NCBI GenBank assembly: GCA_038143065.1
Contig: JAYQLI010000005.1
Span: 1-61,206, forward strand
Direction: 5' to 3'
Length of the DNA stretch: 61,206 bases
From: Rhodospirillales bacterium
Lineage (GTDB): Bacteria > Pseudomonadota > Alphaproteobacteria > Bin95
Position 1 is the first letter of the stretch; every line of letters starts with the position of its first letter. The notes beneath the pieces were generated by a model that searched no databases, was not told where the DNA came from, and saw only the letters and a list, made by a program, of their open reading frames with translations. The position numbers and the translations under genes were made by a program. Shown piece after piece: positions 13,819-51,658 of this stretch.

Positions 13819-15781
13819 CTAGATCTGTTGGAGTCCGCAATCTCTGAGATAATTGAAAACACCATCATAGTACGTTGGAGGTCGGGTAGGATCGTTTTCA
13901 GAACCTTCTGGAATAAAAATAACCATTCCCTGGCGAGCTCTGGTTAAGAGAACACGATAGGCATTTAAAATGTATTTCTTCCGTTCAGGAGACGAAACAT
14001 TCTGCCACTTGGAGCCTCTGAATGCATGCATTTTCCAACCAGCATCTTCATATCGTAAATCAGCATCCCAACAGACGCCAACGTAATCAAGTTCTAGACC
14101 CTGTATATCAAATTGCGTAGCCACATCTTCTAAGAAAAAAGATGATCGAACATCACCTTTATCATTCAAAAACCAATTCGTGGCATCGATTTCCGACTTA
14201 ATAAAAATTCCTTCTGGCCTAAGCCTCAAAGCACCAGCTGAAGCCACAAGCCCAATCCTTTCCGTTCCCCTGCCGGACCGGCGTAGCCATTCCCTTGCGG
14301 CTTCCAGTTTCCTTGTTAAGAATATTGGATAGTTATCGGCTAAGGTAGAATATATTTTCAGAGCCGCCTTATCATTGCCGCTTATTATTTCAGAAATGAA
14401 AGCTGATAATTTCTCTGCTCTAAAGGAGCGCATGCTAGTGGCAAGATGCAAATGCTTGGATGTTTGATAGGACGAGGACTGTAATTTAAGTCTAGCCACA
14501 TCATCGATGGTGTAGTGCTCATCCGACAGCACATCTGAAATATATACATCCCAGCTTGAAAGTGTTCCATCTAAAGCCTTCAGCCACTCAATAATCCCAG
14601 CCTCACCGTATTAATTTCTTGCCCACCGCCTATTAAACAAACCACGCAACACCAGTCATTGTGTCGGTCCATAACTTTAACAAAAATTCAGGCTCTGACT
14701 GGGGTGCATAGCCTGAGCCCCACTTTCCAGTCATAAATTTAGTAGCCTGTTCTTTCGACCATGCTCTTTGGGCTTCATCAAATATTACTACTTTTTCAAT
14801 AGGAGCCTGTGGATTAGTAAAATATTCGTCCCTGAAGTGATGTATATTCTGAATAAAGCTACTGACTTCTCGTTGAGCATCTTTCTTCTTAACTTTTTCG
14901 CTTACGACTTTATCGCGTGCTAGCGCTTCACGAAGAACTTCAACAAGAGGTCCATTACCTGACAGAAAGACAGCATGTTCTTCCTTTTAACAGAACGAGA
15001 CGTCGCGATATTAAGGATTACCAAGTGTTTTTCCTGCTCCAGGCACGCCCGTTACAAAACAAATGCTCTTGTGACCCAATATCTTGGAACGTTCTATTAT
15101 TTTAAAAATTTCGTCAGTTGTTTCAGATAAATTTTTCGCGCCAGAATCAGAACGAGCAATATCTTCAACGTTATGGGATTTATATAATGCTTGTGCTGCT
15201 TCAACTATTGTTGGTGTTGGCATGTAACCGGACTTTTCCCATACCTCTGCAACTGTAAAACCTGCATGAGATGAAGTGTGAGCGGCAGAAAGACAATCTT
15301 TAATCAAAGAATTCAGTCCCAGCTCGCCTATAAGAAAAGGCTTGGCGACAAGGTCCTTCGCAATCTGTATTTGATTGGTTGAGGGGTATTGGCTTTGGTT
15401 GCAACGACAATAGGAAATATTAGTAAATCATGTGAACCTAAATGGAAATTTTTAAGATCAATGCGTAGTCATAGGCCTGATCGATGGCAAATCGATCAAA
15501 GGAAGAAGAACCTACTTTAAACTCCAAAACGAACACACATGAATTGATAAATAAAATACAATCCGCACGCTTGCCCATGCGCGGAATCTTGAATTCAAAA
15601 TAAATTTTCCCTTTCCAATGTTGTTCGAGTTGCTGTTTTAGATATGTGAAATTTGGTTTTGCCATGCGATGGTCTGTAGATGTTCTAGGGCTTGCACATG
15701 AAACGAGGTCAGTGTGCCTAGAATTTCATCTTCATTAGTGTCCCAGAACTGTTCCAGTTGAGCTTGATAATATGCTTGCAT
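13819..15781 (-). CDS. DUF2075 (Schlafen group-3-like) DNA/RNA helicase with N-terminal nuclease-like domain, frameshifted
   Basis: [12 protein letters not shown]...VFVLEFK; Walker [12 protein letters not shown]; IFDEAQRAW; QGLELDY; [13 protein letters not shown]. Confidence 0.85.
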
Positions 15782-15862
15782 GACCACTTCTCCTGCAGCC
15801 CAATGTCAGCCAAACATATTACAAATTCAATCTAATCCTTGTGCCATCTGCTTCAGCATTTC
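15736..15862. repeat. Direct repeat copy 1: 3' end of an unknown gene plus the DUF2075 start (copy 2 at 23570-23695)
   Basis: Shared TAGTGTC...TATGCTTGC.TGACC.CTTCTCC.GC...CCAATG.CAGCCAAACAT.TTA.AA.TCAATCTAATCC...TTCAGCATTTC. Confidence 0.8.
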
Positions 15863-15978: not shown

Positions 15979-16569
15979 TCAATAAATCTCAACTTTTACA
16001 GGCGTGGGATTATAACCATTGCAGGGATTATGCATCTGAGGGCAGTTGGACAGCACTGCCAAAGTGTCTGTCCTAGCCAGCAGTGTTACATAGCTATTTG
16101 GTTTAAGAGTTACATTATCGACGCCAGCCGATCCGTCTTCCAAAACAGGAACCGACATAAACCAATTTATATTGGGAACTATAGCCTCTTTACCCATCCC
16201 GTTTTTGATAAGCTCCGCCTGAAAGTTATCGTAGCAGGACTCCGTCGTTTCAACACCATATCTGAGCTTGTTGTTAGGATTGCTGCAGCAGCCATAAATA
16301 GTGTCATGCCGCCCAATAGTGTCTTCCACCACCTCAAGTAACTGGGTGCCACTATCAGAGTACGATACACTACCTAATCCTACATAGACATTACCCTGAA
16401 CTTTAACCGTGTTAGTAGCTGAATATCGATCTGAGCGATCAACATTATTATAGCAGAGAAAGTCTACGGCTTGTTGACCTTCAAGGTCAGTTATCTTCAG
16501 GCGTTGGCCCTCTTTTACAACTCCTGACCATGAAGTTTTAGCTGCGACCTCTTCTTCGTAAATGCCCAA
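15979..16569 (-). CDS. DUF1989 urea/guanidine carboxylase-associated family protein
   Basis: DLEGQQAVDF, HDTIYGCCS, SCYDNF, NINWFMSVPV, SNCPQMHNPCNG motifs. Confidence 0.85.
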   Translation of the reverse strand: MGIYEEEVAAKTSWSGVVKEGQRLKITDLEGQQAVDFLCYNNVDRSDRYSATNTVKVQGNVYVGLGSVSYSDSGTQLLEVVEDTIGRHDTIYGCCSNPNNKLRYGVETTESCYDNFQAELIKNGMGKEAIVPNINWFMSVPVLEDGSAGVDNVTLKPNSYVTLLARTDTLAVLSNCPQMHNPCNGYNPTPVKVEIY

Positions 16570-17262: not shown

Positions 17263-17632
17263 TTATTCCCATTTATCACCTTCAGCAGGATACTGACGCA
17301 TAATTTCATCGGAGGCCCGATAAGCGGACACAAATTGGTGCATCTCGCTGACCCTGGAATTAACCACTGTGCCTTCAAGTTCAAAGGCATTCAGTTGCTG
17401 ATAAACATCATCTTCACTTTCAGCCATCCAGTGACAGTAAAAGAAGTCATCGTTTCCACACCAAGTCTGCATACATTGAGCGTGTTCGCCGATCGCTTCT
17501 ACTGCCCACTGCAACTCCGACTTTGCGGTTGAGGCGGATCACGTTTTTCAGGCGTTAAATATTCTTGACGCGCCTCATCAGATACAAATGAGTGGATAAC
17601 AAAAAATGTTTAGAAAAACGTTCCTTGAGCAT
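17263..17632 (-). CDS. Small hypothetical protein, probable dimeric alpha+beta barrel
   Basis: HFFVIHSFVSDEARQEY...CMQTWCGNDDFFYCHWMAESEDDV; frameshifted. Confidence 0.55.
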
Positions 17633-18236: not shown

Positions 18237-18536
18237 CTATGATATTTCTGCCAAATTAAATGAGCACATCGCCTTCCAAGACCACGGTATCTTTTAAATG
18301 CTTGCTAAAAATATCTGTCTGCAGTCCTTTTTACGTATCTCATGTCCAGCCAAACGCGCTTTTTCATTTTGATAAACAGTTATGCCCACACCGCTAGCTA
18401 CACCCGTTTTCACGAAAACAGTCTGCTCAGTGTTTGGATACGGCCCATGAGCCTGCCAAGCATCCACAAATGCTTCAAGACTATCAGCGCTGTTAAATTC
18501 AAACATCATTATATTGGAGACTTTCATCGGATCCAA
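18237..18536 (-). CDS. Small hypothetical protein, probable alpha+beta barrel
   Basis: VSNIMMFEFNSADSLEAFVDAW...VKTG...GITVYQNEKAR...VVLEGDV. Confidence 0.55.
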
Positions 18537-18886: not shown

Positions 18887-19387
18887 TAAAAGGCTCCTAT
18901 GATTTGCCTCAGAATAATGCGCTGTGGCGATATGTGGAGTCCTTGTTTGAACACTTGTGCGCGCATGGGTTTGTATTACGCCATATCTGCCAAGTGGGGT
19001 CCCCACGGGTGGAACTAATTCCAATTATGTATGAGCATTCCGCCTATTTACTGCTGGTATCAACCTTGATTGTACAATTTAGAGTAACTTAATGCGCAGC
19101 GTTTTCTATGTGACGCTTGAATAAAAATTAGGCAGATCATCAGTATTTTTAATTTGTGACGTTAGGTAACACTTTGGCATTCAAATAGGTAGGGCAAATA
19201 TGAAAAATTGAAGCATGTATTTACCAGTTATTGTTTCATCGATCGGCTTCCTTCGATGTTTGGGAAGCCGGTCTTCCTTAAGAAGTGCGCGCCCTTCACG
19301 TGTTATAGTTAATAATTGGCTAGCCTTACCGATAGGTCAGCCATTTTTACAATAGTAGCTTTAGCCCCCGCCTGCGTCGCAAGCATA

Positions 19388-19473
19388 ACTAGCTTAATCG
19401 ACTCTGCAACCTGAGCACCTTCAGGAATTAAGCAGTATTATGCTCAATAAACGCCCCAATTATTCCACCGCGT
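19388..19473 (-). pseudogene. Terminase large subunit 5' fragment (copy 3)
   Basis: Translates RG.II.AFIEH/YCLIPEGAQVAESIKLV, homologous to the fragment at 20898-21112. Confidence 0.75.
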
Positions 19474-19515
19474 ATCTTTTGTATGCTAACCTCGCAGCCA
19501 AAAAAGGAGAAATTA

Positions 19516-19785
19516 ATGTTTGCCACATTTACTGATTGGACTTTGGATGAACCAAAAACATTTGCTGAAAGCGCGGAAGAGTTTTGGCCAAGCATGAAAG
19601 AGGCTGGCGCAGTGAATATGCGAATTGTTCAAACAAGCGATAAGGGTGTGCGCACTATGACTATGTGGCCAGATGCTGAAACTGCGCTAATGGCTATTCA
19701 AGCAATTTCAACAGTGGGCACTTCCTCAACTGGCATTGAAGCGGTGGGAGGCGCTAAAGGCGCTGTTTTAGCGGAGTTTAATTAA
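19516..19785 (+). CDS. Small hypothetical cassette protein (ABM-like alpha+beta barrel)
   Basis: Intact 89 aa ORF; RBS AAGGAG; W...K.AGA....VQT...RTMTMWPD. Confidence 0.7.
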   Translation: MFATFTDWTLDEPKTFAESAEEFWPSMKEAGAVNMRIVQTSDKGVRTMTMWPDAETALMAIQAISTVGTSSTGIEAVGGAKGAVLAEFN

Positions 19786-19843
19786 ACTGCTTAGCGATCA
19801 GCTTATTAACGCTAAAGACCTTTAAAGCTGCGCTAGCCTCTCT
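19778..19843 (-). repeat. terS 3'-end fragment (repeat copy D)
   Basis: Translates EASAALKVFSVNKLIAKQFN*; shares AGCGATCAGC and CTAGCCTC with the other copies. Confidence 0.75.
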
Positions 19844-19897
19844 TTGCACCATAATCATTTATGTTCTACATTCACGAAAGAAACAAGGAAGCAAGTA

Positions 19898-20284
19898 ATG
19901 GCTGAACTAAACGCACACTCTGACCGCATGGTCCTGGTATTTAATTGTAAAGTTAAAAGCGCCGATGATTTCAAGGCTTGGTCTAAAGATCGGGCGGCAA
20001 AATATGTTTACGAATGTAACGAGGAAAACACTATAAGTTATGAATGGCACATTTCTGATGACGGATCTGAAGCAACTCTTATAGAAACTTTTAAAGACAG
20101 CGACAGCATGATGGTGCGCCTTGGAAACCACGGGGCCAGTCCAATTGCAGCTGAAGTTATGGAGCAAGTCGAAATAACCGGCGTTCTATGTTTAGGCAAT
20201 GCCAAGCAAGATGCCAGAGATGCTCTGTCCGCTTGGGGTGCAATCTTCCATGCACACCATGCTGGCTTTCATAAAAGTAATTAA
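19898..20284 (+). CDS. Antibiotic biosynthesis monooxygenase (ABM)-like protein
   Basis: Intact ORF; EENTISYEWHISDDGSEATLIETFKDS is a typical ABM pattern. Confidence 0.7.
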   Translation: MAELNAHSDRMVLVFNCKVKSADDFKAWSKDRAAKYVYECNEENTISYEWHISDDGSEATLIETFKDSDSMMVRLGNHGASPIAAEVMEQVEITGVLCLGNAKQDARDALSAWGAIFHAHHAGFHKSN

Positions 20285-20293
20285 GCAGCTTAT

Positions 20294-20358
20294 TTAACGA
20301 ATGGGATGAGCGATCAGCCCATCAACAGCAACACCCTTTAAGCCGCTCTAGCCTCAAC
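20294..20358 (-). repeat. terS 3'-end fragment (repeat copy C)
   Basis: Translates VEARAA/KGVAVDGLIAHPIR*. Confidence 0.75.
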
Positions 20359-20362
20359 CTTA

Positions 20363-20481
20363 GCCATGTAGGTAATCAATCACATCCAGAATCAACATGC
20401 GATAAACCTTCATAAGCTTGATTGGTTGCCCAGCCTTAGCTTTTTCTTGAATTAAACAATAATGTTATCTTTCGTGGCGTA
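20363..20481 (-). pseudogene. Terminase large subunit 5' fragment (copy 2)
   Basis: Translates HYCLIQEKAKAGQPIKLMKVYRMLILDVIDYLHG versus HYSLILEGAQIGQQIKLIKFLRKFILDVFDNPHS in copy 1. Confidence 0.75.
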
Positions 20482-20542
20482 ATATTTGACAGAAACGGAT
20501 CACTGCTTTTCGATGATTGAAGTCATAACTAGGGAGAGAAAA

Positions 20543-20827
20543 ATGTCATACTACACAATTTCGTACTGGGAAGCCGATGAATGGACAGATGAAATGGAAG
20601 CGATTGCTAAAGATAAATTTGGCCCAATGATTATGGCTGTGGGTGCTCGTTCAGTCGATTTTGTTAAAACCGGTGACAATACAATGTGCGTTGTAACCAA
20701 GTATAAAGATGAAGCAACTGGAACGGCTGCTCTGGCAAAGATTGCTGAAATTCGAGGTCAAGCCGCATCAACGCTGCCGGTCAGGATGGTTTCTGACGTT
20801 AAAGGTTCTGCGTTCGTAAGTATGTAA
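20543..20827 (+). CDS. Small hypothetical cassette protein (ABM-like alpha+beta barrel)
   Basis: Intact 94 aa ORF MSYYTISYWE...; RBS GGGAG; distantly similar to the 19516 gene. Confidence 0.7.
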   Translation: MSYYTISYWEADEWTDEMEAIAKDKFGPMIMAVGARSVDFVKTGDNTMCVVTKYKDEATGTAALAKIAEIRGQAASTLPVRMVSDVKGSAFVSM

Positions 20828-20828
20828 T

Positions 20829-20897
20829 TTAATGAGCGGGCTGAGCGATCAGCCCCTCAACTCCAACAGCCATTAAAACCGATCTAGCCTCGCCATC
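20829..20897 (-). repeat. terS 3'-end fragment (repeat copy B)
   Basis: Translates DGEARSVLMAVGVEGLIAQPAH* versus EGAARAALKDVGVAGLVDQLVN* at the end of the full terS. Confidence 0.8.
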
Positions 20898-21112
20898 AAC
20901 AGCACTAGCAGTATGGCTGCTATTATCGCAGACTTGTCGTATTTTCTCGCCACTGACAGATAAGCGCGCCTGGCACTGTGCGGGTTATCAAAGACATCCA
21001 GAATAAACTTGCGCAGAAATTTGATCAGCTTGATTTGCTGACCGATCTGAGCGCCTTCTAGGATCAGGCTGTAATGCTCAATGAATACGCATATCTTTTG
21101 GCCGCGTGTCAT
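20898..21112 (-). pseudogene. Terminase large subunit 5' fragment (copy 1)
   Basis: MTRGQKICVFIEHY.LI.EG...G..IKL..F.RKFILDVFDNP...RRAYLSVARKYDKSAIIAAILL; the Walker A ARKNGK is degenerate; truncated after ~70 codons. Confidence 0.8.
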
Positions 21113-21199
21113 AACAATGTCACCTTTCGTTACGTAATCATTGACATGGGCCGTCATCAAATAGTGGGCTAAGGTTATCAAAAAAGAGGGAGAAATAAA

Positions 21200-21571
21200 A
21201 TGACACCCAAAGAAGTGGTACAAAAAGGATATGATTGTTTTGCATCAGGCGATATGGAAACTTTCGTCAGACTGTTTCATGAGGATTGCACCGTCACGAT
21301 AAATGGTATGCACAAATTCTCTGGAACCTATAATGGGATAAATGAGTTCATGGGCGTATTAGCATTGATACCATCCCACTATGATAATTTTTCTGTGACC
21401 GTGTCGAATATGATTTCTGAAGGAGATCAAGTCGCAACTCAACTGGATGCGTCTGCTGACGGTATGGAAGCTAAATTTGGGCATTTCCACAGAATTGAAG
21501 GAGGCAAAATAAAGGAGTTTTGGATTTACGATGATAGCCAAAAAATGGCGCATGCAATGAAAGCCGTTTGA
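21200..21571 (+). CDS. SnoaL-like/NTF2 family protein
   Basis: VVQKGYDCFASGDM...FHED...GTYNG...ISEGDQV...IEGGKIKEFWIYDDSQ. Confidence 0.85.
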   Translation: MTPKEVVQKGYDCFASGDMETFVRLFHEDCTVTINGMHKFSGTYNGINEFMGVLALIPSHYDNFSVTVSNMISEGDQVATQLDASADGMEAKFGHFHRIEGGKIKEFWIYDDSQKMAHAMKAV

Positions 21572-21626
21572 TATATTTATTGGTTGGGCAAACGGCCCAG
21601 CCACGCCTATCTAAAGGAGACATAAG

Positions 21627-21890
21627 ATGAACGTATTTATGCACGGAACAGTAGAAGCTGGTTTTGATGTTCTTAAAGCTAAGATTGAAAGCGATATGGC
21701 AGGTCCAGCGGGAAAATTCGTTGATGAATATCGCCTCGCTCATCTTGGTAATGGTGAAATTATGTTTTGCGCACAGGTGAATGATTTCGAAAAAATGGGG
21801 GCATTCATGAGTGACCCTGCTGAAGTGCAGTGGGACAAAGACCACGGTTGTGTTTACAAAGTTTATTCAGTCGAAGAAATGCAGGATTAA
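21627..21890 (+). CDS. Small hypothetical protein, probable alpha+beta barrel
   Basis: Intact 87 aa ORF; RBS AAGGAG; its stop overlaps the terS stop in TTAA. Confidence 0.7.
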   Translation: MNVFMHGTVEAGFDVLKAKIESDMAGPAGKFVDEYRLAHLGNGEIMFCAQVNDFEKMGAFMSDPAEVQWDKDHGCVYKVYSVEEMQD

Positions 21891-22360
21891 TTTACAAGCT
21901 GATCGACCAGTCCCGCAACGCCAACGTCCTTAAGCGCAGCCCGCGCAGCGCCCTCTAACTTAGCCGCTACATGGATCGTGCGCGGATCAGAGGCCGTTTG
22001 GTTTAGTGACATTGATCGGATAACCGCCAACTGACGCCGCTTAAGGACATCAATAACTGCCGGCAGCGAGTTTGGAATTGGCGTCCCGCGCCTATTCTCA
22101 ATCATCATATCCATAGCATCCAACTCAATCTGAGCTGCCCGGATGTCCAGCTTCCATCCTTACAATTTTCGTCAATAAGAACAAGTCCATATCACGCCAA
22201 TCTGACCTCGCGCAGGGGCGGATGAACCGGTGCCAGATTATTAGCTCAGCCTTGCTGCGTAGCTCCACTCCAGCAGGTAGTGGAATGAGATCATTAATGG
22301 CACCAACAAAATCATGCCACCGCAGAGGTCACACCATTTTTTGAAAGATCGTTTTTTCAT
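21887..22360 (-). pseudogene. Terminase small subunit (P27-like, cos type), frameshifted or decaying
   Basis: Hand translation: MKKRS.KN...PLPAGVELRS..ELIIW..F...ARSDWRDMDL.LL.KIV.MEADIR...IENRRGTPIPN...RRQLAVIRSMSLNQTASDPRT; lies between HNH and terL. Confidence 0.7.
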
Positions 22361-22444
22361 AATTCTGTTACGACCTCTCGTTATATTTTTATTTATCTTG
22401 ACTTGCTGTTACTGACCCACGTTTTGATCTCATTTAAAGCGTGG

Positions 22445-22526
22445 GTTTTTTTCGTAAACGCAAAAACGTTTTGATGTGAACACCAGTTTCTTGCCCTTGG
22501 CTTTTAACTTCTGACTCACCCCTCCG
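22445..22526 (-). other. Possible decayed cos packaging region
   Basis: GGAGGGGTGAGTCAGAAGT...TTTTTGCGTTTACGAAAAAAA between HNH and terS, the canonical cos position in HK97-like phages. Confidence 0.35.
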
Positions 22527-22631: not shown

Positions 22632-22894
22632 ATGCTTAACACTCATGAAGTAAATCTATTTGAACATGTCCTTTGGCACTGCCAAAACGTCTATAAGCTT
22701 AATACTCTTCAAGAAGCTGTAATAGCTGCGAGGCGAGACGGCTTTTAGACTGGGACAACAAACTAACTCCAATTGGGCGACATGTTGCAGAATTAATGAT
22801 GCAAGACTTCGAAAATTATAAATCGCTCTTTGAAGTTGATGTTAAAAAGCCGCCGGGTTATGTTTATCAACCGGCTATCCATCAGCTCCAATAG
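22632..22894 (+). CDS. Small hypothetical protein (frameshifted)
   Basis: RBS GGAGG; MLNTHEVNLFEHVLWHCQ...DWDNKLTPIGRHVAELMMQDF. Confidence 0.45.
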
Positions 22895-23190
22895 TCATGT
22901 CGTATCCCCATGCTTCGTCCAATTGGATCGTGTGTGAGTGATAGCGCCAGCAAACTGTTTATAAGTTATTTAGATCAAAAAACAGTTTTAGATCACCCTC
23001 GTGTGGCTTTAAATGGCTCACCACTGCACTACGTGGGTGAATCCTGCCTGCCTGCAATTATGCGCCGCAGCCGCTGTGTTGACACTGGTAATCTTCGCAT
23101 GTGACAGCCTGACGCCTGAGTGTTGTCTAATGCTTCGTGCTGTAAAGCGAGCGATATGGCTGTGCTTATGCACTCCGTTGAGTAATTGAT
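22842..23190 (-). pseudogene. Phage packaging-associated HNH endonuclease pseudogene
   Basis: One frame reads YRSLYSTKH*TTLRRQA...YQCQHSGCGA*LQAGR.HPRSAVVSHLKPHEGDLKLFFDLNNL*TVCWRYHS...IGADG*PVD, with four in-frame stops; start approximate. Confidence 0.75.
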
Positions 23191-23569: not shown

Positions 23570-23695
23570 TAGTGTCACACAGCTGTTATAGTTGAACTTT
23601 ATATTATGCTTGCGTGACCGCTTCTCCCGCGGACCAATGGCAGCCAAACATCTTATAAATCAATCTAATCCATTTGCCAACTAATTCAGCATTTC
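23570..23695. repeat. Direct repeat copy 2 of 15736-15862 (decayed DUF2075 start)
   Basis: ATG CAA GCA TAT TAT has become ACG CAA GCA TAA TAT. Confidence 0.8.
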
Positions 23696-23836: not shown

Positions 23837-25287
23837 ATGACCAATTTCACACTCGAAGATATTGAACATAGCCGCCCTTTAGACGTGCACAGATGGTCAG
23901 ATTTTACCGCAATAAATAACTTAATTAACAGAATGTTCGTTCAGTACTTCCAAGTTAATTTTCACAGTACAGATGCCAAGGCCAGAGCAAAAAAGCATGT
24001 GAAAGTGCTTATTATTGACCTCTTTGTACTGACGACTGAAGACGTATACAAAAGTATCGGCTTACCGATGTCACCAAAGAGTTATCAAAAAGGCTCAAGG
24101 TTCAGATCGCTACACGTCAAAAGCTTGATGATCAATATAGTTGATATGGCTGAAACCGCTGGGTTGATTGAAGTTTGGCGCGGCACGGAGGGAATTTCAC
24201 GCGTCAGCAGAATAAGACCAACCAAACAGCTGTTATCCATCTTTAAGAAAGCTAATCTCAAAAAATTTCAAAGGCAGCTAGCCCAAACCACTAAGCCATC
24301 AATTTTACTACGCAGCGCAGATAAAAAGTTAAGCTTCCAACCACACGAACTACCGTTGAGTGACGAGGACAATCTCCAGCTATCCAGGTCGGCCTTGATA
24401 TTGAAAGAGTATAATGCGCTTCTCGAAAAAACCTTTGTGGACATACCAGACCTAAATTCACCCCGTATCACGACATCAAGAGAAGGCAAACAAACATCAT
24501 ACGCGCTGGTAACACAGTCGAGCAAAACAGTTTATAGAGTATTTAACGACCTGAGTATTGAGAGTGGCGGCAGGTTTTATGGCCCCTTCTGGCAGCAACT
24601 TCCAAAAGAGATTAGAGCGCGCATCTACATTAATGACGAACCAACAGTAGAGATCGACTACTCAGGCATACATATAAATCTTATCTACCATTGCCTCAAT
24701 ATCGACCAAAAGGCTCCTACAGGAGACCCATACGGAAATCCAGCTGCCTCAGCTGGGGATTAATAAACCAAAGCTTAGGCGAATGGCTAAACAGCTTATG
24801 CTAATAGCAATTAATGCCCAGGATCTAAAAACCGCGCTCCAAGCCTTTAGGGCTTGGCTTATCACCCAAAAAGATCTTGGTGAAAACCTACCAAACCTTA
24901 CAAACAAAACATTAAAGCTGATAATCGAAGCATTAAGAGAAAAGCACAAAAGCATAGAACAATATTTCTTCACAGGGTTAGCTAAAAGCCTAACGACAAT
25001 GGACCCATTAATCCTCGAGGAACTTATAGGAGTGTGTACATCCAGAAACATTCCAATTTTAACGATACATGACCTGTGATAGTCCAGTTAAGATATGCGA
25101 AGCTCTAGATCAATTAATGAAGGAAACCTATAAATTAGTTACGAAAAAAGGGGATATAAACACAGACATACTACCTATAAAAAGAGGCCTGGGAAGCATA
25201 GAAACAGGTGCCACAAAGAAAAGAACTAAAAGGTATCTGAAAGAACAACGCCTTCACAACCTACTATACAATGGCCAGGTAACTTAA
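23837..25287 (+). CDS. Uncharacterised family-A DNA polymerase/T7-RNAP-like palm protein of mobile elements (frameshifted)
   Basis: GGRFYG..WQ.LP...R..I.INDEPTVEIDYSGIH (motif A-like), R.MAKQLMLIAINA (motif B-like), ILTIHD (motif C-like) across three ORFs. Confidence 0.6.
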
Positions 25288-25607
25288 CACAGACACCCAT
25301 TCCATTACGGGAAAAGTTAATTCCATCAAAGCTACTTCTCATCAAACACTTACGTTCATTCCGCGTAGCTTTATAGAGATCGAATTTAAAAGTGTTAACT
25401 ACCAGCTGCTAAGGCGTCGGCTGAATTAGTATCTCAAGCACCTGTATCCTGATCAATAGAGTGTTTCAGAAAGGTTTGCGTCATCTGTCACAATACAATA
25501 CAAATGTCACATCGAACAGGTGAATATTCGCCAAATTTGACAAATAAAACTTTTCGTGGAATTCTGCTTGGTGCGTTTGCTTTTAAAGAGTTATTTTTAT
25601 TTAAAGA

Positions 25608-25625
25608 TGGTGCCCGGGGCGGATT
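25608..25625 (-). repeat. tRNA-Phe 3'-end fragment (att core)
   Basis: TGGTGCCCGGGGCGGATT matches 10245 and 52957 (one G short). Confidence 0.8.
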
Positions 25626-25969
25626 GTGGCTCCGCCAACAGGCGCCATGTTCATCTAACCAGGCTGATTTATCCTGTGATTTCATTATGGCCTATACGCC
25701 TTGCCAACGTCAATCAGGCATTAAAACCACTACGGTATTCACTACGGCTAGAGAGCACCTACACGAGTGCCAGCGCACACCCTTATGGATACCGTGCATG
25801 ACCCTGACCTGAGAGTTAGATTTACCAATCGTCAACTAACCTCATAAGACCGTTTCATCGGGGTCTTGACGGTTTTATCTGACTAGTGGATGGAGGTATT
25901 GTGCATCCAGCTTATACGAGGTGATGTCTTATATATTATTACCCCTCTTCGTAAAAGAAGAGAGATAAC

Positions 25970-26071
25970 AGTGTAGGGAATGTAGCAATGTAGGCAAATC
26001 CGAAAAGTCCTCAGAGAATTCCCCAGAAAAGTTTTCCAAAAATGCCTACATTGCCTACAATACCTACATTG
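25970..26071. other. Putative iteron replication origin (copy 2)
   Basis: Three TGTAG(G) repeats at ~9 bp period facing three inverted CCTACA repeats. Confidence 0.6.
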
Positions 26072-26089
26072 GTCGGGGTTAGAGATGGA

Positions 26090-26539
26090 TTACCGGTTGG
26101 ATACCGTGCCATTGCATTCCGCTAGAGGAACGGATTGGCAAACATTTGGGAGTTTATCCATGGCTTTAAAAGCATTAGTCGACTGCGGTTTGCGACCGAT
26201 GGCCTGACAGTATTGGCGGTAAGCCTCGTACAGTTTAGAAGCTGAATACTTAGTATCTGCCTCTAGGCTACATTCCTGCTCAATAAACTGAGCGATGCTA
26301 TCCATCTCGGTCTTGTAAGCCCTGACTTGGTCAAGGACCACTCTGCGGTGGTCTAAGCCTTGCTCTTGCCAAATCCAAACACCCCTTGATCGCCCAATTA
26401 AGGATGCCGGGGGAGTTCCGTTGTCAGTTTAATACCAAGGTCTTTGTCTTGCTGTTCTGCAGTAAAGGTACGGTTGAACGGTATAGCGTATGCGCCGCCA
26501 GATACCGTGGTCAGTATTATTGATCTGAGGGAGACTGTT
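26090..26539 (-). pseudogene. 3' fragment of the primase-helicase gene
   Basis: AIPFNRTFTAEQQDKDLGIKL and YKTEMDSIAQFIEQEC match the C-terminus of 48960-51113. Confidence 0.85.
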
Positions 26540-27343: not shown

Positions 27344-27402
27344 GCTTTGTCTATCCTTTAGCTTCTCTTGGAAGATAGCACATCATTTGTTGATTTCCAA
27401 AA

Positions 27403-27424
27403 TATATCTGATATGTCAGATATA
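27403..27424. promoter_or_regulatory. Putative GntR operator ATCTGA-N4-TCAGAT
   Basis: TATATCTGA-TATG-TCAGATATA palindrome between divergent gntR and dctP. Confidence 0.65.
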
Positions 27425-27464
27425 AGATCTTAAATTAACTGCAACCAAATCCAGGGAGGATATT

Positions 27465-28457
27465 TTGTTTAAGAAATCTACATTGGCACTAAGCGTTTTA
27501 TTGTCGGCAGGGCTCGCTTTTGCAGCATCGGCAGGAACAACCATAAAAGTTGGGCATGGCGCAAAGGAAGCGTTCCATATGCATCGTGCGCTTTTGAAAT
27601 TTGAGGAACTGGTCGAAGCTGGATCGGGCGGTGAAATCGATGTTCAAATTTTCCCATCCTCGCAAATGGGACCAGATCGTGAAATGATCGAAGGTGTTCA
27701 AACTGGCGTTCTAGAAATGGCCATTCCGCCATCTTCTTTTCTTTGCAGGCTGGACCCAGCCTTTGCCGTTATCGAGCTCCTTATATGTATGCTTCTAAAG
27801 ACATCGCTTTTGATGTGCTGGATGGCAGCGCCGGCGATGGAATGTTATCTCGGGTCGAAAATCAAGGTTTGGTCGGGCTCGGATGGCTCGAGCTCGGTGT
27901 ACGCAACGTTACAAATAATGTGAGACCGGTTGCCACACCAGAAGATCTAGAAGGCGGAAGTTGCGGACGATGAAAGTTCCAGCCCATGTTGCAACTTTCG
28001 AAACGCTCGGCGCCAACCCCACGCCAATGAATTTTGGCGAGGTTTATTCTGCGCTTCAGCAAGGCGTGATTGACGGACAAGAAAATCCTTGCAATCATCA
28101 CCTCAGCGATTTTACGAAGTGCAAAAATATCTATCGACAACCGGACATGTTTTCGCAGTTTATATGCCGGTTATTTCAAAACCCTTCTTTGAAAGCCTTT
28201 TCAGCAGAGCACCAAAAACTTGTAAGAGATCTGATGGCTGCGGCGCGTGATCATCAGGCGCAGTTGGTTGCTGGTGAGGATGCTGCGCAATTAGAACAAA
28301 TTCGCGCAGCAGGTGTGGAAGTCTTAGAGCTGACAGCTGAACAGCGTCAAGTGTTCGCAGACAAGACCGAAAGCGTTCGCCTCCAGTATCGTGAAAAGGT
28401 TGGTGCAGAGGCCTATGACAACTGGTTTCGGCGGTAGCTGCTGTAAGCGTTAAGTAA
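27465..28457 (+). CDS. dctP: TRAP transporter substrate-binding protein (frameshifted)
   Basis: IFPSSQMGPDREMIEGVQTG; GANPTPMNFGEVYSALQQGVIDGQENP. Confidence 0.9.
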
Positions 28458-48959: not shown

Positions 48960-51113
48960 ATGTCAAACATAAACATATGCGCGCAAGACGCCTATCTTGC
49001 ATTGTATCCGCAGTCCAAAAAGCCTGTGGGTGTTAACTGGCCCGATGAGGGTAAGTCACGAGAACAAGCCCTAGCCACAAACGGCAATCTTGGTCTTCTG
49101 CTTGGGCCTAAATCTGACGTCATGGATGTCGATTTAGATTGCCGAGAAGCAAAGGACCTTGCCCAACTGATATTGCCAAAACCTTTTGCCCAGTTCGATA
49201 GAGGAACGTCTGACAGCGGACACTATCTTTATAAGGCTATTACTTGTGGTCCGACGAAGAGGTTTTCTGGCAATGGCCCTAAATCGACGTTGGTCGAACT
49301 ACGCGGAGATGGTTCTCAAACAATGATCCCGCCATCTATCCACCCAGATGGAAGTCGTTTGAACTTCACTGATATCAACCAAGATGCACCTGAAGTTGAA
49401 TATGCTGATTTATTGAAATCGGTGTCGCTTCTAGCTGGTTGCTCTGAGGTCGCCCAACTATGGGTATCAGGTCGAAGGCATGAGCTAGCACTGTCCTTTT
49501 CGGGCCTTTGTCTGAAGCAAAACGTCAACCCTCAACTGCTCATAAATATTATCCAGCGTATTTGTCAGACAATGGGCGACAGGGATGAGCAGGATCGCAT
49601 GAACTGCGTGAGAACTTCTGTTGGCAAACCTCATGACGAACTTCGAGGGTATAATGGCTTAGTGGACTGCATCGGAAAGGCTGCAGCGGATCGTATAGCA
49701 AAGCTTGTTGGACAATACTGCGGTCGAGAAGAAGGATCGTTAGCGGTTATCCAAGAAGCCAAGTCTGAGATTGTTAATTTTGGGCGTTTTGCAGATGGGT
49801 CCAATGTGACAGAGGCAAGATTGAGCGAGGCCTTTGGTCAATGGCTTGATGGAAAAGCAGTGTATGTTTTCCAGACTAGGCAATGGATGATTTGGAATGG
49901 GGCCTATTGGTGCGCTGACGAACGTGGGTTGATGATCAGGTTTGCTTTCAATTTCATAAGAGAATCGAAACAGGCCCTTTTTGATACAGGCAATCACAGT
50001 GCTGCAGGAAACTTATCGTCCTTTGAAAGCCTCAGTAAACTCGAAAACCTTTGCAAATTAGCCGCGACAGATAGAGCTGTTTCACTGAGTGACTTTGATA
50101 CGGATGCAATGCTCTTGGCTGCACCAAACCAGTGGATAGACCTCAAATCTGGGGAAGCATTTGATCCTGATCCATCAATTTTGGTCAGCAAGTTAATAGC
50201 CACGGATTATTGCGCCAAAAGTGAATGCCCAAACTTTGAAGCTTTTCTTGGAGATATTTTTGAGGATGACCTAGATCTGATAGGCTACGTGCAAAGAGCC
50301 ATTGGCTATAGTCTTACTGGCTCAACTTCTGAGCAATGTCTCTTCATTCTGATAGGCGATGGAGCCAACGGAAAATCTACCTTTATAAATGTGATCAACA
50401 AGCTATTGGGTGATTATTCAAAGGCAGCCTCATCTCAAACTCTTGTTGCGAAAGGAAGCTCTTCTATCGGTGATGATTTGGTTGATCTGGTATCGGCTAG
50501 ATTGATCTCGGTAAGTGAAACTGAAGCAGGTGAAGCTCTGGCTGAAGCCAAGATAAAACAGATGACAGGAGGAGATGTTCTTAAAGCTCGCCCGTTATAT
50601 GGAAGCTGGTTGGAATTCAGTATCATTGGGAAGATATTCCTGGCGACTAATAGTCTCCCTCAGATCAATAACACTGATCACGGTATCTGGCGGCGCATAC
50701 ACGCTATACCGTTCAACCGTACCTTTACTGCAGAACAGCAAGACAAAGACCTTGGTATTAAACTGACAGCGGAACTCCCGGCATCCTTAATTGGGCGATC
50801 AAGGGGTGTTTGGATTGGCAAGAGCAAGGCTTGAACCCACCGCAAGTGGTCCTTGACCAAGTCAGGGCTTACAAGACCGAGATGGATAGCATCGCTCAGT
50901 TTATTGAGCAGGAATGTAGCCTAGAGGCAGACACGAAGTATTCAGCTTCTAAGCTGTACGAGGCTTATCGTTTAGTTCTGTCAAGCGCTTGGTCGCAAAC
51001 CGCAGTCCACTAATGCATTTAAAAAAGCCTTAGATAAACTCCCAAATGTTTACCAACACCGCACTTCTAGCGGAATGCAATGGCACGGTATCCAACCGGT
51101 AATCCATCTCTAA
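48960..51113 (+). CDS. Bifunctional primase-polymerase + P4/D5-family SF3 helicase (satellite replication protein)
   Basis: N.GLLLG...DVDLD; GH.LY; IPPSIHPDG; Walker A GDGANGKST; KQMTGGD...AR.LY; D.GIWRR; 3' frameshifts. Confidence 0.9.
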
Positions 51114-51589
51114 CCCTCAACCAATGTAGGTAGTGTAGGCAATGTAGGCATTTTGGAAAACTTTTCTGGGGGAATTCTCTGGGGACTTTTCGGATTTGCC
51201 TACATTGCCTACATTCCCTACACTGTTATCTCCCTTCTTTTACGAGGAAGGGGTAATAATATATAAGTCAAACACCTCGTATAAGCTGGATACACAAGCA
51301 GCCCCCATCCACTGGTCAGATAAAACCGTCAAGACCCGATGAAACGGTCTTATGAGGTTAGTTGACGATTGTTAAATCTAACTCTCAGGTCAGGGTCATG
51401 CACGGTATCCATAAGGGATGCGCTGGCACTCGCGTAGGTGCTCTCTAGCCGTAGTGAATACCGTAGTGGTTTTAATGCCTGATTGACGTTGGCAAGGCGT
51501 ATAGGCCATATTGAAATCACAGGATAAATCAGCCCGGTTAGATGAACATGGCGCCTGTTGGCGGAGCCACAATCCGCCCCCTGGCACCA
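50649..51589 (+). repeat. ~930 bp inverted repeat, right copy
   Basis: Reverse complement of 25608-26539. Confidence 0.9.
51123..51224. other. Putative iteron replication origin
   Basis: AATGTAGGT AGTGTAGGC AATGTAGGC ... TGCCTACAT TGCCTACAT TCCCTACAC immediately after the primase stop; AT-rich tract follows. Confidence 0.65.
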
Positions 51590-51658
51590 CTTTTCACAAT
51601 AACATACTGATATTGTTCTGTTTTCGTTAATGGATGCAGGATCGTAGTTGATGTCGTT
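51571..51658 (+). repeat. tRNA-Phe 3' att core + leader, inverted copy of 52888-52975
   Basis: AATCCGCCCCCTGGCACCA..TTTCACAATAACATACTGATATTGTTCTGTTTTCGTTA...GTAGTTGATGTCGTT. Confidence 0.9.

What the first reader, a model, noticed from the sequence alone, without database searches (positions are those of the whole stretch)
19308..22360. Integron-like cassette array built from terminase gene ends: [terS 3' end][antisense cargo][terL 5' start] repeated in tandem
Seen: each plus-strand cargo unit (21200+21627; 20543; 19898; 19516) ends tail-to-tail with a ~65 bp diverged repeat (GCGATCAGC...CTAGCCTC). On the minus strand this encodes the TerS C-terminus: EGAARAALKDVGVAGLVDQLVN* (full gene, 21887), DGEARSVLMAVGVEGLIAQPAH* (20829), VEARAA/KGVAVDGLIAHPIR* (20294) and EASAALKVFSVNKLIAKQFN* (19778), with a weak fifth at ~19308-19370. 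Three units have a TerL N-terminal fragment upstream of the cargo (20898-21112, 20363-20481, 19388-19473), and at least two are fused directly to the next terS tail. All terS tails start at about the same codon (the G/E-E-A-R region), whereas the terL fragments break at variable points. Inference: the terS-terL junction of a cos phage lineage is a moron hotspot. Different alleles were serially captured into the chromosome, possibly at a fixed recombination or terminase/HNH cut site within terS. This would be a gene-accretion system with no integron integrase or attC; I know of no description of it.
Basis: partly seen in the sequence, partly recalled or inferred. Interest (0 to 1): 0.9.

Follow-up and report, generated by a model that had tools for sequence, protein, structure and literature searches.

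The report
Stacked phage moron cassettes with terminase-end linkers
A dead prophage end in a marine bacterium carries five small, still-conserved accessory genes stacked between scraps of the phage's two terminase genes, and related phages show that these genes are shuffled as cassettes, most likely by ordinary recombination and not by an integron-like enzyme.

Summary
The repeat pattern is real. On the minus strand lie a broken HNH gene, a frameshifted terS, then five plus-strand cargo ORFs. Each cargo has a terS 3' tail (36-93 nt) at its 3' end, and three are preceded by a terL 5' head.

The terS-terL junction is a hypervariable hotspot: the gap ranges from -4 bp (overlap) to 4.9 kb in the 74 of 80 viral loci where it could be measured. 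Every window cargo recurs elsewhere, alone or in another order. Two locus pairs differ by units bounded by tails or linkers. Cargo genes are under purifying selection (dN/dS 0.05-0.51).

Tail starts are not one site. Six junction classes begin 36-93 nt before the terS stop, with about 3-nt overlaps at the two mapped junctions. Several classes are inherited and re-used in new contexts. The same tail/cargo/head layout occurs at the terL-portal junction.

No integrase lies near the array, and there is no attC signature or conserved fold.

Best reading: additive illegitimate joins followed by homologous shuffling through chimeric terL-head/terS-tail linkers. This is a new variant of phage moron or hyperplastic-region shuffling.

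The parts
22854..23189 (-). HNH endonuclease remnant (broken reading frame)
   Evidence: tblastn with the C12 HNH protein: 52% identity over residues 44-153, E 1.7e-27. Only short ORFs remain here. The C12-type protein matches Pfam HNH in the relative G061.
21887..22384 (-). terS (small terminase), frameshifted near 22125; its last ~65 nt form tail D
   Evidence: Two frames carry the N and C parts. Both parts hit phrog_5601 'terminase small subunit', E 0.0014 and 0.0093. tblastn to C12 TerS: 50% identity over 171 aa, E 8e-34.
21627..21890 (+). cargo D2, 87 aa, no family found
   Evidence: ORF; no Pfam hit. 91% DNA identity together with its tail to L038 5773-6127. dN/dS 0.12-0.17.
21572..21610 (-). 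short terS tail remnant D' (last 36-41 nt of terS)
   Evidence: Weak tblastn hit to the L038 tail. Homologous to the L038 short tail (local score 92). That L038 tail matches a terS 3' end better than all of 1000 shuffles. The junction is shared with L038 and L159. On its own the window copy is not significant: 105 of 500 shuffles reach its score.
21200..21571 (+). cargo D1, 123 aa, SnoaL/NTF2-like
   Evidence: Pfam SnoaL_2, E 1.9e-14. 81% aa identity to a copy in L130; dN/dS 0.05-0.11.
20898..21146 (-). terL leader (~35 nt) plus terL head (nt 1-211)
   Evidence: tblastn to phage TerL, E 8e-20. 83-89% DNA identity to terL starts in L035-L040. Head end mapped to terL nt 211.
20829..20900 (-). 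terS tail C (72 nt), fused to the head above
   Evidence: nhmmer E 3.2e-16. 90% identity to the L037 terS 3' end. The same junction occurs in L161.
20543..20827 (+). cargo C, 94 aa, ferredoxin-like family (paralogue of cargo A)
   Evidence: Aligns with the cargo A family at 25% identity. Sits alone between terS and terL in L135 (73% DNA identity). dN/dS 0.28 against C7.
20363..20548 (-). terL leader plus terL head to nt 138, with an internal deletion
   Evidence: 88% identity to the L037/C12 leader; 77% to terL nt 36-138.
20294..20365 (-). terS tail B (68-79 nt); junction class I
   Evidence: nhmmer E 8e-15. The same terL-nt-138 | tail junction occurs in C11, in L142 (twice) and in L152. A variant of it appears in 4 of 4 laid runs.
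19898..20284 (+). cargo B, 128 aa, no family (ABM is only a lead)
   Evidence: ORF; no Pfam hit. Atlas lead: ABM on 40% of members of one cluster. 74% aa identity to copies in L130 and L144; dN/dS 0.09.
19778..19842 (-). terS tail A (63 nt clear; perhaps a decayed stretch up to ~93)
   Evidence: nhmmer E 2.1e-14. Tail plus cargo A is 89% identical to L038 5406-5760, where it is the live terS end. The junction is shared with L130.
19516..19785 (+). cargo A, 89 aa, dimeric ferredoxin-like (ABM-like) fold
   Evidence: AlphaFold model pLDDT 81, beta-alpha-beta-beta-alpha-beta. Foldseek best hit 2od4_A, E 8e-5, TM 0.74. dN/dS 0.17-0.19.
19391..19476 (-). third terL head (about terL nt 33-103)
   Evidence: blastn to the terL starts of L037 (E 4e-9) and L039 (E 1.7e-7) and of C12 (E 1.3e-7). 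Local alignment.
   Evidence: No better than shuffles against a terS 3' end. 79% identical to a segment upstream of HNH in L142 and L127, and 73% to C12:77606-77838.
15736..15862 (.). left copy of a 127-bp direct repeat bounding the 7.8-kb block that holds the array
   Evidence: 83% identity to 23570-23695.
23570..23695 (.). right copy of the 127-bp direct repeat

Best explanation
The locus is the packaging end (HNH-terS-...terL) of a defective HK97-like, HNH/cos-type prophage or satellite-like element. In this marine lineage the terS-terL junction is a hotspot for small accessory genes (morons), mostly antisense.

The array was probably built in two kinds of steps. Both are inferred.

(1) Rare additive 'backward' joins between two related genomes with different cargo. 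A point just downstream of one cargo, often inside its terL head, is joined by illegitimate or microhomology recombination to a point inside the last ~40-90 nt of the other genome's terS. This leaves a chimeric linker [terL head | terS tail] between two cargos.

(2) Much more frequent homologous exchange, possibly by relaxed phage recombinases. It uses tails, leaders, heads and whole linkers as short portable homology arms. This swaps, adds and deletes cassettes and spreads old junctions into new contexts.

Longer duplicated pieces of the conserved terS body or of terL would be removed by recombination between repeats, which would explain why only short ends survive. The cargo genes are kept by selection while the phage genes decay.

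The outcome resembles an integron array, but no dedicated integrase or attC-like site is involved.
For: Shown:

- Hotspot. In 80 viral loci the gap is -4 to 2 bp in 9, 49-98 bp in 3, 209-512 bp in 26, 938-1452 bp in 27, 1.9-2.6 kb in 8 and 4.9 kb in 1. In 6 loci terL was not in the locus. Cargo differs between near-identical terS/terL backbones.
- Cassette re-use. Tail A + cargo A (89%) and tail D + D2 + short tail (91%) are adjacent in L038 but far apart in the window. L130 has B followed by D1. C, B, D2 and an A-like gene each occur as the cargo next to terS in L135, L144, L159/L140/L148 and L133.
- Unit indels at repeats. C11 equals L142 minus one [cargo + leader] unit; 207 nt of linker align to both L142 linkers. 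L161 lacks the window's segment between tail C and tail A, and its single tail aligns to both.
- Junction classes. Class I (terL nt 134-138 | tail 68-79) occurs in 5 places with different neighbours. Class II occurs in 2 places, class III in 2 and class V in 3.
- Mapped overlaps of about 3 nt (GGC; TTG/GTTG) at junctions B and C.
- The same [tail][antisense cargo][head] layout at the terL-portal junction in L015, with duplicated terL tails in L015, L016, L018-L021 and L099.
- Metagenome contigs show alternative adjacencies and loose ends exactly at cassette borders: 20548, 20826-20831, 20465 and 21112-21114.
- Cargo dN/dS is 0.05-0.51 in the 13 of 16 comparisons that gave a value. In the C5/C7 pair the cargos are 94-100% identical per 100 columns, while the terS body is 85-94% and segment X is 58-87%.

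From the literature. Relaxed homologous recombination between phages and defective prophages, stimulated near cos, is experimentally established (PMC3945230; abstract and section 7 read). Many viral contigs end just upstream of terS, which is consistent with cos lying about 0.5 kb from this hotspot.
Against: - No recombination event was observed. The two-step history is inferred from end products.
- All six junction classes have tails of 93 nt or less in a terS of roughly 470-530 nt. Under uniform breakpoints this would be about 1e-5 (my arithmetic). Some constraint therefore exists. I explain it by instability of long repeats, but that is untested.
- Two classes (III and IV) begin at the same GAGGCTAG, 63 nt before the stop. 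This could hint at a preferred site.
- No recombinase of the Rad52, Erf or RecT type was looked for or found in the related element G061. Only 10 of its ORFs were scanned.
- Tails of 36-90 nt at 75-90% identity are short substrates for homologous recombination.
- The consensus scan found no sigma-70-like promoter upstream of any cargo and no terminator in any tail, so expression of the cargos is unproven.
Confidence: 0.6

Rival explanations
1. A dedicated, integron-like capture system. A site-specific recombinase or nuclease (the neighbouring HNH, the terminase, or an unknown enzyme) acts at a defined site at the start of the terS tail. It inserts [tail + cargo (+ terL head)] cassettes next to terS.
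For: Every cargo has a tail: 5 of 5 in the window, 3 of 3 in L038 and 3 of 3 in L142. Tails are always short, 36-93 nt. Two different upstream sequences join at the same GAGGCTAG (classes III and IV). The terS body is highly conserved up to the tail and mosaic after it.
Against: Six junction classes start at 36-41, 52, 63, 63-93, 72 and 68-79 nt, so there is no single position. No conserved fold exists: only 1 of 4 tails folds better than shuffles on either strand. There are 0 attC-type core-site pairs against 0.75 expected by chance. No tyrosine recombinase above the Pfam cut-off lies on the window contig; the only sub-threshold piece is about 30 kb away. The same layout occurs at terL-portal, where no terS site exists. 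Many 'hits' are a single inherited junction.
Confidence: 0.1
2. Plain decay. Several related prophages integrated in tandem, and independent random deletions removed everything except the terS-terL neighbourhoods.
For: The phage genes here are broken: HNH, terS frameshift, truncated terL. HNH-terS-cargo-truncated terL remnants are common in larger metagenome contigs (about 24-373 kb): L112, L113, L115, L116, L139, L153. C41 is another example.
Against: Random deletions would not give tails of 93 nt or less in six of six junction classes. They would not give the same junction in different cassette contexts. They would not give three-cassette arrays next to intact terS (L142), or between intact terS and intact terL and portal (L038/G061). 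No trace of integrase, att sites or other prophage genes lies between units.
Confidence: 0.1
3. The ends are kept by selection. The cargo's promoter lies in the terL leader/head and its 3' end signals lie in the terS tail. Only transfers that carry both scraps yield an expressed gene. This explains why scraps travel with cargos, whatever the joining mechanism. It complements the best explanation more than it competes with it.
For: Cargo starts lie only 33-90 nt from the terL or portal start. A conserved ~35-nt terL leader contains the complement of TTGACA (read by eye). Cargo and terS stop codons overlap or lie within 1-9 nt. Cargos are under purifying selection.
Against: The consensus scan found no promoter upstream of any cargo and no terminator in any tail. 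Three window cargos or units lack a head (D2, B, and D' has none). Tails show no conserved structure. No RNA data were examined.
Confidence: 0.15
4. In-place tandem duplication of one [tail-cargo-head] unit, followed by divergence.
For: Cargo A and cargo C are paralogues at 25% identity. Tails B and C are 78-82% identical.
Against: D1 (SnoaL-like), D2 and B are unrelated to A and C. Each window cassette has a closer relative elsewhere (72-98% aa or DNA identity) than within the array.
Confidence: 0.03

Closest known systems
PeSL-mediated modular shuffling in hyperplastic regions of T4-type phages (Arbiol et al. 2010, PMC2839356; Comeau et al. 2014, PMC4122927). I read the abstract and outline of the first and only the search listing and abstract start of the second.
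   Same: Small non-essential ORFs sit in a phage hotspot, separated by short repeated sequences. Recombination between those repeats inserts, deletes and replaces ORF modules.
   Different: Here the repeats are not promoter/stem-loop cassettes. They are scraps of the flanking essential genes (terS 3' end, terL 5' end), often fused into a chimeric linker. The phages are temperate HK97-like, and the largest arrays sit in defective prophages. Mini-circles were not looked for.
Phage morons and prophage/satellite hotspots (Juhala 2000 and Cumby 2012 as cited in bioRxiv 10.1101/2024.10.15.618418, of which I read passages; Rousset 2022, PMC9122126, search listing only)
   Same: Independently oriented accessory genes are inserted between conserved late genes. 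Cargo is highly variable at a fixed genomic position.
   Different: The stacking of up to five cargos, each with a duplicated end of the flanking gene, and the re-use of chimeric junctions as linkers, did not turn up in my searches. One search was aimed at the recombination literature. Supplementary files of papers were closed and were not seen.
Integron cassette arrays (IntI, attI, attC)
   Same: Tandem, mostly co-oriented small promoter-poor ORFs, each followed by a ~40-90 nt repeat. Content varies between relatives. Cargo types (small NTF2-like or ABM-like proteins) recall, from my memory, those of chromosomal integrons.
   Different: No intI is nearby. There are no attC core sites or conserved fold. 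Boundaries are not nucleotide-exact. The repeats are homologous to coding ends of phage genes.
Relaxed homologous recombination between temperate phages and defective prophages (De Paepe et al. 2014, PMC3945230; abstract and section 7 read)
   Same: Exchange between phages and prophage remnants occurs through short, diverged homology and is stimulated near cos.
   Different: That work describes replacement mosaics in lambdoid coliphages. It does not describe additive arrays with partial duplications of flanking genes.

Membership tests
Integron (cassette array) | An IntI-type tyrosine recombinase gene adjacent to the array | tested here: not met
   A PF00589 search of the whole genome found no match above the cut-off on contig C5. 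One sub-cut-off piece lies at 51728-51949, about 30 kb away. IntI-specific models were not run.
Integron (cassette array) | attC sites: paired core sites (RYYYAAC ... GTTRRRY; consensus recalled from memory) and an imperfect palindrome that folds | tested here: not met
   0 core-site pairs on either strand of 19000-22500, against a mean of 0.75 in 200 shuffles. Only tail C folds better than shuffles (z -3.0 and -2.5); the other three do not (z -0.8 to +0.6).
Integron (cassette array) | Nucleotide-exact cassette boundaries | tested here: not met
   Tail starts lie at 36-41, 52, 63, 63-93, 72 and 68-79 nt before the end of the terS stop.
HK97-like HNH/cos-type packaging module (HNH, P27-type TerS, TerL, portal) | HNH endonuclease immediately upstream of terS | tested here: met
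   HNH remnant at 22854-23189. Intact homologues sit upstream of terS in C12, L014, L027, L035-L040 and others. Pfam HNH in G061.
HK97-like HNH/cos-type packaging module (HNH, P27-type TerS, TerL, portal) | TerS and TerL homologous to those of known phages of that type | tested here: met
   The TerL head matches TerL of Rhizobium phage 16-3, HK022, HK542 and Burkholderia/Ralstonia phages, E 8e-20 to 3e-14. TerS matches only a PHROG terminase-small-subunit family, weakly (E 0.0014 and 0.0093), with no Pfam hit. The 'P27-type' label is my recollection.
HK97-like HNH/cos-type packaging module (HNH, P27-type TerS, TerL, portal) | cos ends next to terS | tested here: inconclusive
   Many IMG/VR contigs begin or end within ~10-50 nt of the terS start. 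Physical ends were not determined.
PeSL-type shuffling cassettes | Repeats consisting of a strong early promoter plus a terminator stem-loop | tested here: not met
   No consensus promoter or terminator in tails or linkers and no conserved hairpin.
PeSL-type shuffling cassettes | Module gain, loss or replacement bounded by the repeats | tested here: met
   C11 versus L142 and L161 versus the window differ by units bounded by linkers or tails. The same cassettes appear in different orders.

The most novel reading that the evidence does not exclude
The chimeric terL-head/terS-tail linkers, and the matching terL-tail/portal-head scraps, work as portable recombination sites. This would be a phage analogue of attC or PeSL made from the ends of essential packaging genes. 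Defective prophages in marine bacteria would then serve as standing libraries of small accessory genes. Active phages or satellites of the lineage would draw cassettes from these libraries and deposit cassettes into them, perhaps through excised circles, with double-strand breaks at the nearby cos site driving the exchange.
Probability: 0.3. Interest if true: 0.75.

Novelty: new variant of a known kind. Interest (0 to 1): 0.55.

Why it matters
This would be a clear natural example of how phages accumulate and trade accessory genes without any dedicated cassette enzyme. One rare illegitimate join creates a linker out of the ends of two essential genes. Ordinary homologous recombination then re-uses that linker again and again.

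The array occurs in 20 public runs from 11 studies of estuarine and marine water, so the process is active in abundant marine populations. The cargo is a set of small conserved proteins of unknown role (ferredoxin-like/ABM-like, SnoaL-like, membrane and secreted peptides). These proteins stay under selection after the phage has died, which marks them as candidates for host-beneficial or anti-phage functions.

The finding also gives a practical search key. Partial duplicates of terS, terL or portal ends can be used to locate moron hotspots and cassette libraries in metagenomes.

Tried and rejected
- attC/integron reading: rejected.
- Tails as intrinsic terminators for the cargo: no terminator-like site falls in any tail, and only one tail has a strong hairpin. 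Left as untested.
- Fifth tail at 19308-19370: rejected.
- C11 first tail (51 nt) as a cassette junction: dropped. The sequence just upstream matches the stretch just beyond an IS6-family transposase gene seen in L142, so it is probably an IS-mediated truncation.
- IS6 elements as builders of the arrays: considered because transposase remnants flank the arrays in C11, C12 and L142. No IS copy lies between units and none lies next to the window array, so this was rejected.
- A shared regulatory motif between the terS-terL and terL-portal hotspots: none seen by eye in the leaders. No motif program was run.
- Weak tail-like hits (E 0.034) inside the portal gene of L036, L038 and L042: treated as chance.
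- Relatives: none of 60 other genomes of the same genus, family or class had this terL with the 89-aa query, so no comparative series within the genus was possible.
- Pfam and PDB-sequence searches gave nothing for cargos A, B, C and D2. PHROGs gave only weak hits (E 0.07-0.1) for A and C and none for B and D2. Atlas hits are leads only.
- The depth tables and uncovered parts were not used as evidence.
- Not used: complex prediction, the search of protein representatives, the search for homologous proteins, RNA-model tools.

Full report
WHAT IS THERE

The window is contig C5 of a 4.63-Mb, 52-contig genome. The minus strand of 19.3-23.2 kb reads, in order:
- an HNH endonuclease remnant (22854-23189; tblastn 52% to the genome's intact copy on C12);
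- a terS split by a frameshift near 22125 (both halves hit PHROG 5601 'terminase small subunit');
- a series of plus-strand ORFs, each separated by scraps of terS and terL.

An nhmmer model of the four ~65-nt repeats finds them at 21887-21951, 20829-20893, 20294-20356 and 19778-19842 (E 1e-13 to 3e-16). In the whole genome it otherwise finds only the paralogous contig C7, the terS end on C12 and two sites on C11.

The terL pieces are genuine:
- 20898-21166 matches TerL of Rhizobium phage 16-3, HK022 and Burkholderia/Ralstonia phages (E 8e-20 to 3e-14).
- 20363-20464 matches the genome's own TerL (E 2.4e-7).
- 19391-19476 matches terL starts at the DNA level (E 1e-7 to 4e-9).

259 of 500 shuffles score as well, and the stretch belongs to a segment that lies upstream of HNH in other elements.

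It is homologous to short tails in L038 and L159. The L038 copy matches a terS 3' end better than all 1000 shuffles. So each of the five cargo ORFs has a terS tail at its 3' end, and three are preceded by a terL leader or head.

Contigs from other studies bridge several junctions. A 7.8-kb paralogue on C7 (95% identity) has the same order. The structure is therefore not an assembly artefact.

THE CARGO

- D1 is SnoaL/NTF2-like (Pfam E 1.9e-14).
- A and C belong to one family with the cargos of C41, L031 and L038. The family model (pLDDT 81) has a dimeric ferredoxin-like (ABM-like) fold. The best PDB match is 2od4, E 8e-5, TM 0.74.
- B and D2 have no family. ABM is only a lead for B.

All five are under purifying selection against copies elsewhere: dN/dS is 0.05-0.51 in the 13 of 16 comparisons that gave a value. 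In the C5/C7 pair the cargos are the best-conserved parts, while the terS body and segment X are the most diverged.

THE LINEAGE AND THE HOTSPOT

None of 60 related genomes has this terL. A terS profile found 3 loci in species-representative genomes. It also found 80 of 111 confirmed loci in IMG/VR and 80 of 256 in metagenome contigs.

Gap between the terS stop and the terL start in the 80 viral loci:

| Gap | Loci |
|---|---|
| -4 to 2 bp | 9 |
| 49-98 bp | 3 |
| 209-512 bp | 26 |
| 938-1452 bp | 27 |
| 1.9-2.6 kb | 8 |
| 4.9 kb | 1 |
| terL not in the locus | 6 |

The ~1.2-kb class mostly holds a same-strand ParB-like methyltransferase-type ORF (named by eye). I examined 13 loci of the 209-512-bp class. 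The longest ORF in the gap is antisense in 9, on the terS strand in 3 and absent in 1 (L015, where one search shows an antisense ORF overlapping the terL start). The cargo differs between nearly identical backbones. The terL-portal gap is variable as well.

CASSETTE BEHAVIOUR

- L038 is a provirus record with intact terS, terL and portal. It carries three cargos: [tail A + cargo A] (89% to window 19840-19486), then [tail + D2 + short tail] (91% to window 21929-21575), then an ABM-like gene.
- L130 has B followed by D1.
- C, B, D2 and an A-like gene each occur as the cargo next to terS in L135, L144, L159/L140/L148 and L133.
- L142 has an intact terS and three intact antisense cargos separated by two copies of the same chimeric linker.
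- C11 of the window's own genome equals L142 minus the middle unit. 207 nt of linker align to both L142 linkers.
- L161 lacks the window's stretch between tail C and tail A, and its single tail aligns to both.
- Contigs from four runs of four studies show alternative neighbours and loose ends at 20548, 20826-20831, 20465 and 21112-21114. They also show a back-joint that places cargo B next to a C-like tail.

Extra tails or heads were flagged in 3 of 80 viral loci (L038, L043, L071). They were flagged in 7 of 80 metagenome loci (L130, L142, L144, L151, L152, L159, L161). L151 appears to be the same sequence as L043.

WHERE THE JOINTS ARE

Internal tails were aligned to a panel of intact terS 3' ends and terL starts. 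This gives six junction classes.

| Class | Left side of joint | Tail length (nt before end of stop) | Where found |
|---|---|---|---|
| I | terL nt 134-138 | 68-79 | window B, C11, L142 twice, L152; a variant in 4 of 4 laid runs |
| II | terL nt 211 | 72 | window C, L161 |
| III | cargo-B 5' region | 63, perhaps a decayed 93 | window A, L130 |
| IV | cargo-A 5' region | 63 | L038 |
| V | cargo-D2 5' region | 36-41 | window D', L038, L159 |
| VII | end of a methyltransferase-type ORF | 52 | L043/L071/L151 |

A seventh candidate (C11, 51 nt) was dropped as an IS6-associated truncation.

Overlaps at the two mapped junctions are about 3 nt: GGC at B and TTG/GTTG at C. The tail start is therefore not one site. 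Much of the apparent regularity comes from old junctions being inherited and moved.

All tails are short, however. With uniform breakpoints in a terS of roughly 470-530 nt, six of six at 93 nt or less would be about 1e-5. This is my arithmetic; the classes may not be fully independent, and tails under about 30 nt would escape detection. Heads are short too (0-211 of about 1500 nt).

The terS protein is nearly invariant up to '...DPRT.NG.AK' and mosaic after it. In L096 an unrelated terS body (27% identity) ends with the same '...DGLIARPQ' next to the same cargo and terL.

NOT TERS-SPECIFIC

In L015 the order is: terL, two antisense cargos, a portal head (MGLFDNF), a 39-aa terL tail identical to the live terL end, another antisense cargo, then the portal gene. 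The duplicated terL tail also occurs in L016, L018-L021 and L099. C12 and L011 carry an antisense ABM-like ORF between terL and portal. A mechanism tied to a cut inside terS is therefore unnecessary.

MECHANISM

I infer two layers.

1. Rare additive joins between two genomes with different cargo, made by illegitimate or microhomology recombination. These create a chimeric [downstream-gene head | upstream-gene tail] linker.
2. Frequent homologous exchange through tails, leaders, heads and linkers. This swaps, adds and removes units.

Relaxed, RecA-independent recombination between temperate phages and defective prophages, with joints enriched next to cos, has been shown experimentally in coliphages (PMC3945230, abstract and section 7). 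Here many viral contigs end just upstream of terS, which is consistent with cos lying about 0.5 kb from the hotspot. Short ends would survive because longer duplicates of conserved terS or terL sequence are themselves substrates for deletion.

An added possibility is that the scraps carry the cargo's expression signals. Cargo starts lie 33-90 nt from the terL or portal start, and a conserved ~35-nt terL leader exists. The consensus scan gives no support for this.

A dedicated integron-like system is unlikely:
- No integrase above the Pfam cut-off lies on the contig.
- There are no attC core sites.
- There is no conserved fold.
- Boundaries are not exact.

COMPARISON AND NOVELTY

The closest described system is PeSL-mediated modular shuffling in T4-type phages (PMC2839356, abstract and outline; PMC4122927, listing only). 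The logic is the same: repeats between small ORFs drive gain, loss and replacement. The repeats differ: here they are scraps of essential flanking genes, not promoter/terminator cassettes.

The locus also fits the general moron and hotspot concept (bioRxiv 10.1101/2024.10.15.618418, passages; PMC9122126, listing only).

My five full-text searches (one search was aimed at the recombination literature) turned up no description of stacked morons separated by terS-tail/terL-head linkers. I rate the finding a new variant of a known kind, of moderate interest.

LIMITS

- No RNA data were examined and no recombinase was identified.
- The organism's taxonomy was not established. The only named close record is a 3-kb contig binned as Rhodobacteraceae, and the window's G+C is 41-54%.
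- The history of the array is inferred from end products.

Noticed in passing
window 15736-15862 and 23570-23695: A 127-bp direct repeat (83% identity) brackets the 7.8-kb block that holds the array. By my reading of the frames it looks like a duplicated 5' end of the broken Schlafen-group-3 helicase (DUF2075-type) gene, whose pieces lie at 13819-15665 (Pfam SLFN-g3_helicase, E 2.9e-42). It could be an old attachment-site duplication.
   Followed up: partly
G000 contig C7:18638-26436: A second copy of the whole 7.8-kb block, 95% identical with the same cassette order. Identity is mosaic: cargos 94-100%, terS body 85-94%, segment X 58-87% per 100 columns. Tyrosine-recombinase genes lie about 4 kb and about 1 kb outside it (C7:14509-14916 and 27378-27764). 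Whether this is a true paralogue or a second strain in the assembly (contamination estimate 5.5%) is open.
   Followed up: partly
L015:2521-3668, also L016, L018-L021, L099; C12:123797-124200: The terL-portal junction is a second hotspot with the same layout: antisense small ORFs, a duplicated 39-aa terL tail and a portal-head scrap.
   Followed up: partly
L097/L098 (record G061, 24.1 kb provirus holding L038): This relative has a P4-type integrase, DUF3631, an AAA_25 protein, a PDDEXK nuclease, HNH, terS, three cargos, terL and portal. A GH108 lysozyme and a second integrase follow within about 3 kb, and no ORF large enough for a major capsid protein lies after the portal. It may be a satellite-like or deleted element and not a full phage.
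   Followed up: partly
L112, L113, L115, L116, L139, L153; G000 C41:35475-37118: Larger metagenome contigs (about 24-373 kb) repeatedly carry HNH-terS-cargo followed by a terL cut after only 25-65 codons (about 105 of 123 ORF residues in C41). The cargo-bearing packaging end seems to outlive the rest of the prophage.
   Followed up: no
L096:1425-1880: A terS only 27% identical in its body to the lineage's terS nevertheless ends in the same '...DGLIARPQ' and is followed by the same ferredoxin-like cargo and an 82%-identical terL. This is a mosaic joint at the terS tail.
   Followed up: no
G000 C11:54228-54906, C12:129702-129986; L142:3866-4606: IS6-family transposase genes or remnants lie next to three related arrays. 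The genome has 33 tblastn segments of this transposase, many of them fragmentary. In C11 the IS end abuts a truncated terS tail.
   Followed up: partly
window 23837-25287: Three consecutive plus-strand ORFs; the first two together match PHROG 4756 (unknown function; E 5e-25 and 9e-14). It looks like one gene broken by frameshifts.
   Followed up: no
window 25603-26539 and 50649-51593: A ~940-bp inverted repeat at 93% identity, with shorter copies on C2 and C12. It is probably an insertion sequence.
   Followed up: no
L043/L071:666-3177: Between terS and terL lie a full ParB-like methyltransferase-type ORF, then a 52-nt terS tail, then a second truncated copy of the same ORF. This is the same tail-duplicating additive join, but with same-strand cargo.
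   Followed up: partly
window 15979-16569: An intact DUF1989 gene (Pfam E 3.7e-54) sits at the far end of the 7.8-kb block on the same strand as terS. Small minus-strand ORFs at 17263-17514 and 18294-18536 have no family. The former resembles, by eye, an ORF downstream of the array in L011.
   Followed up: no
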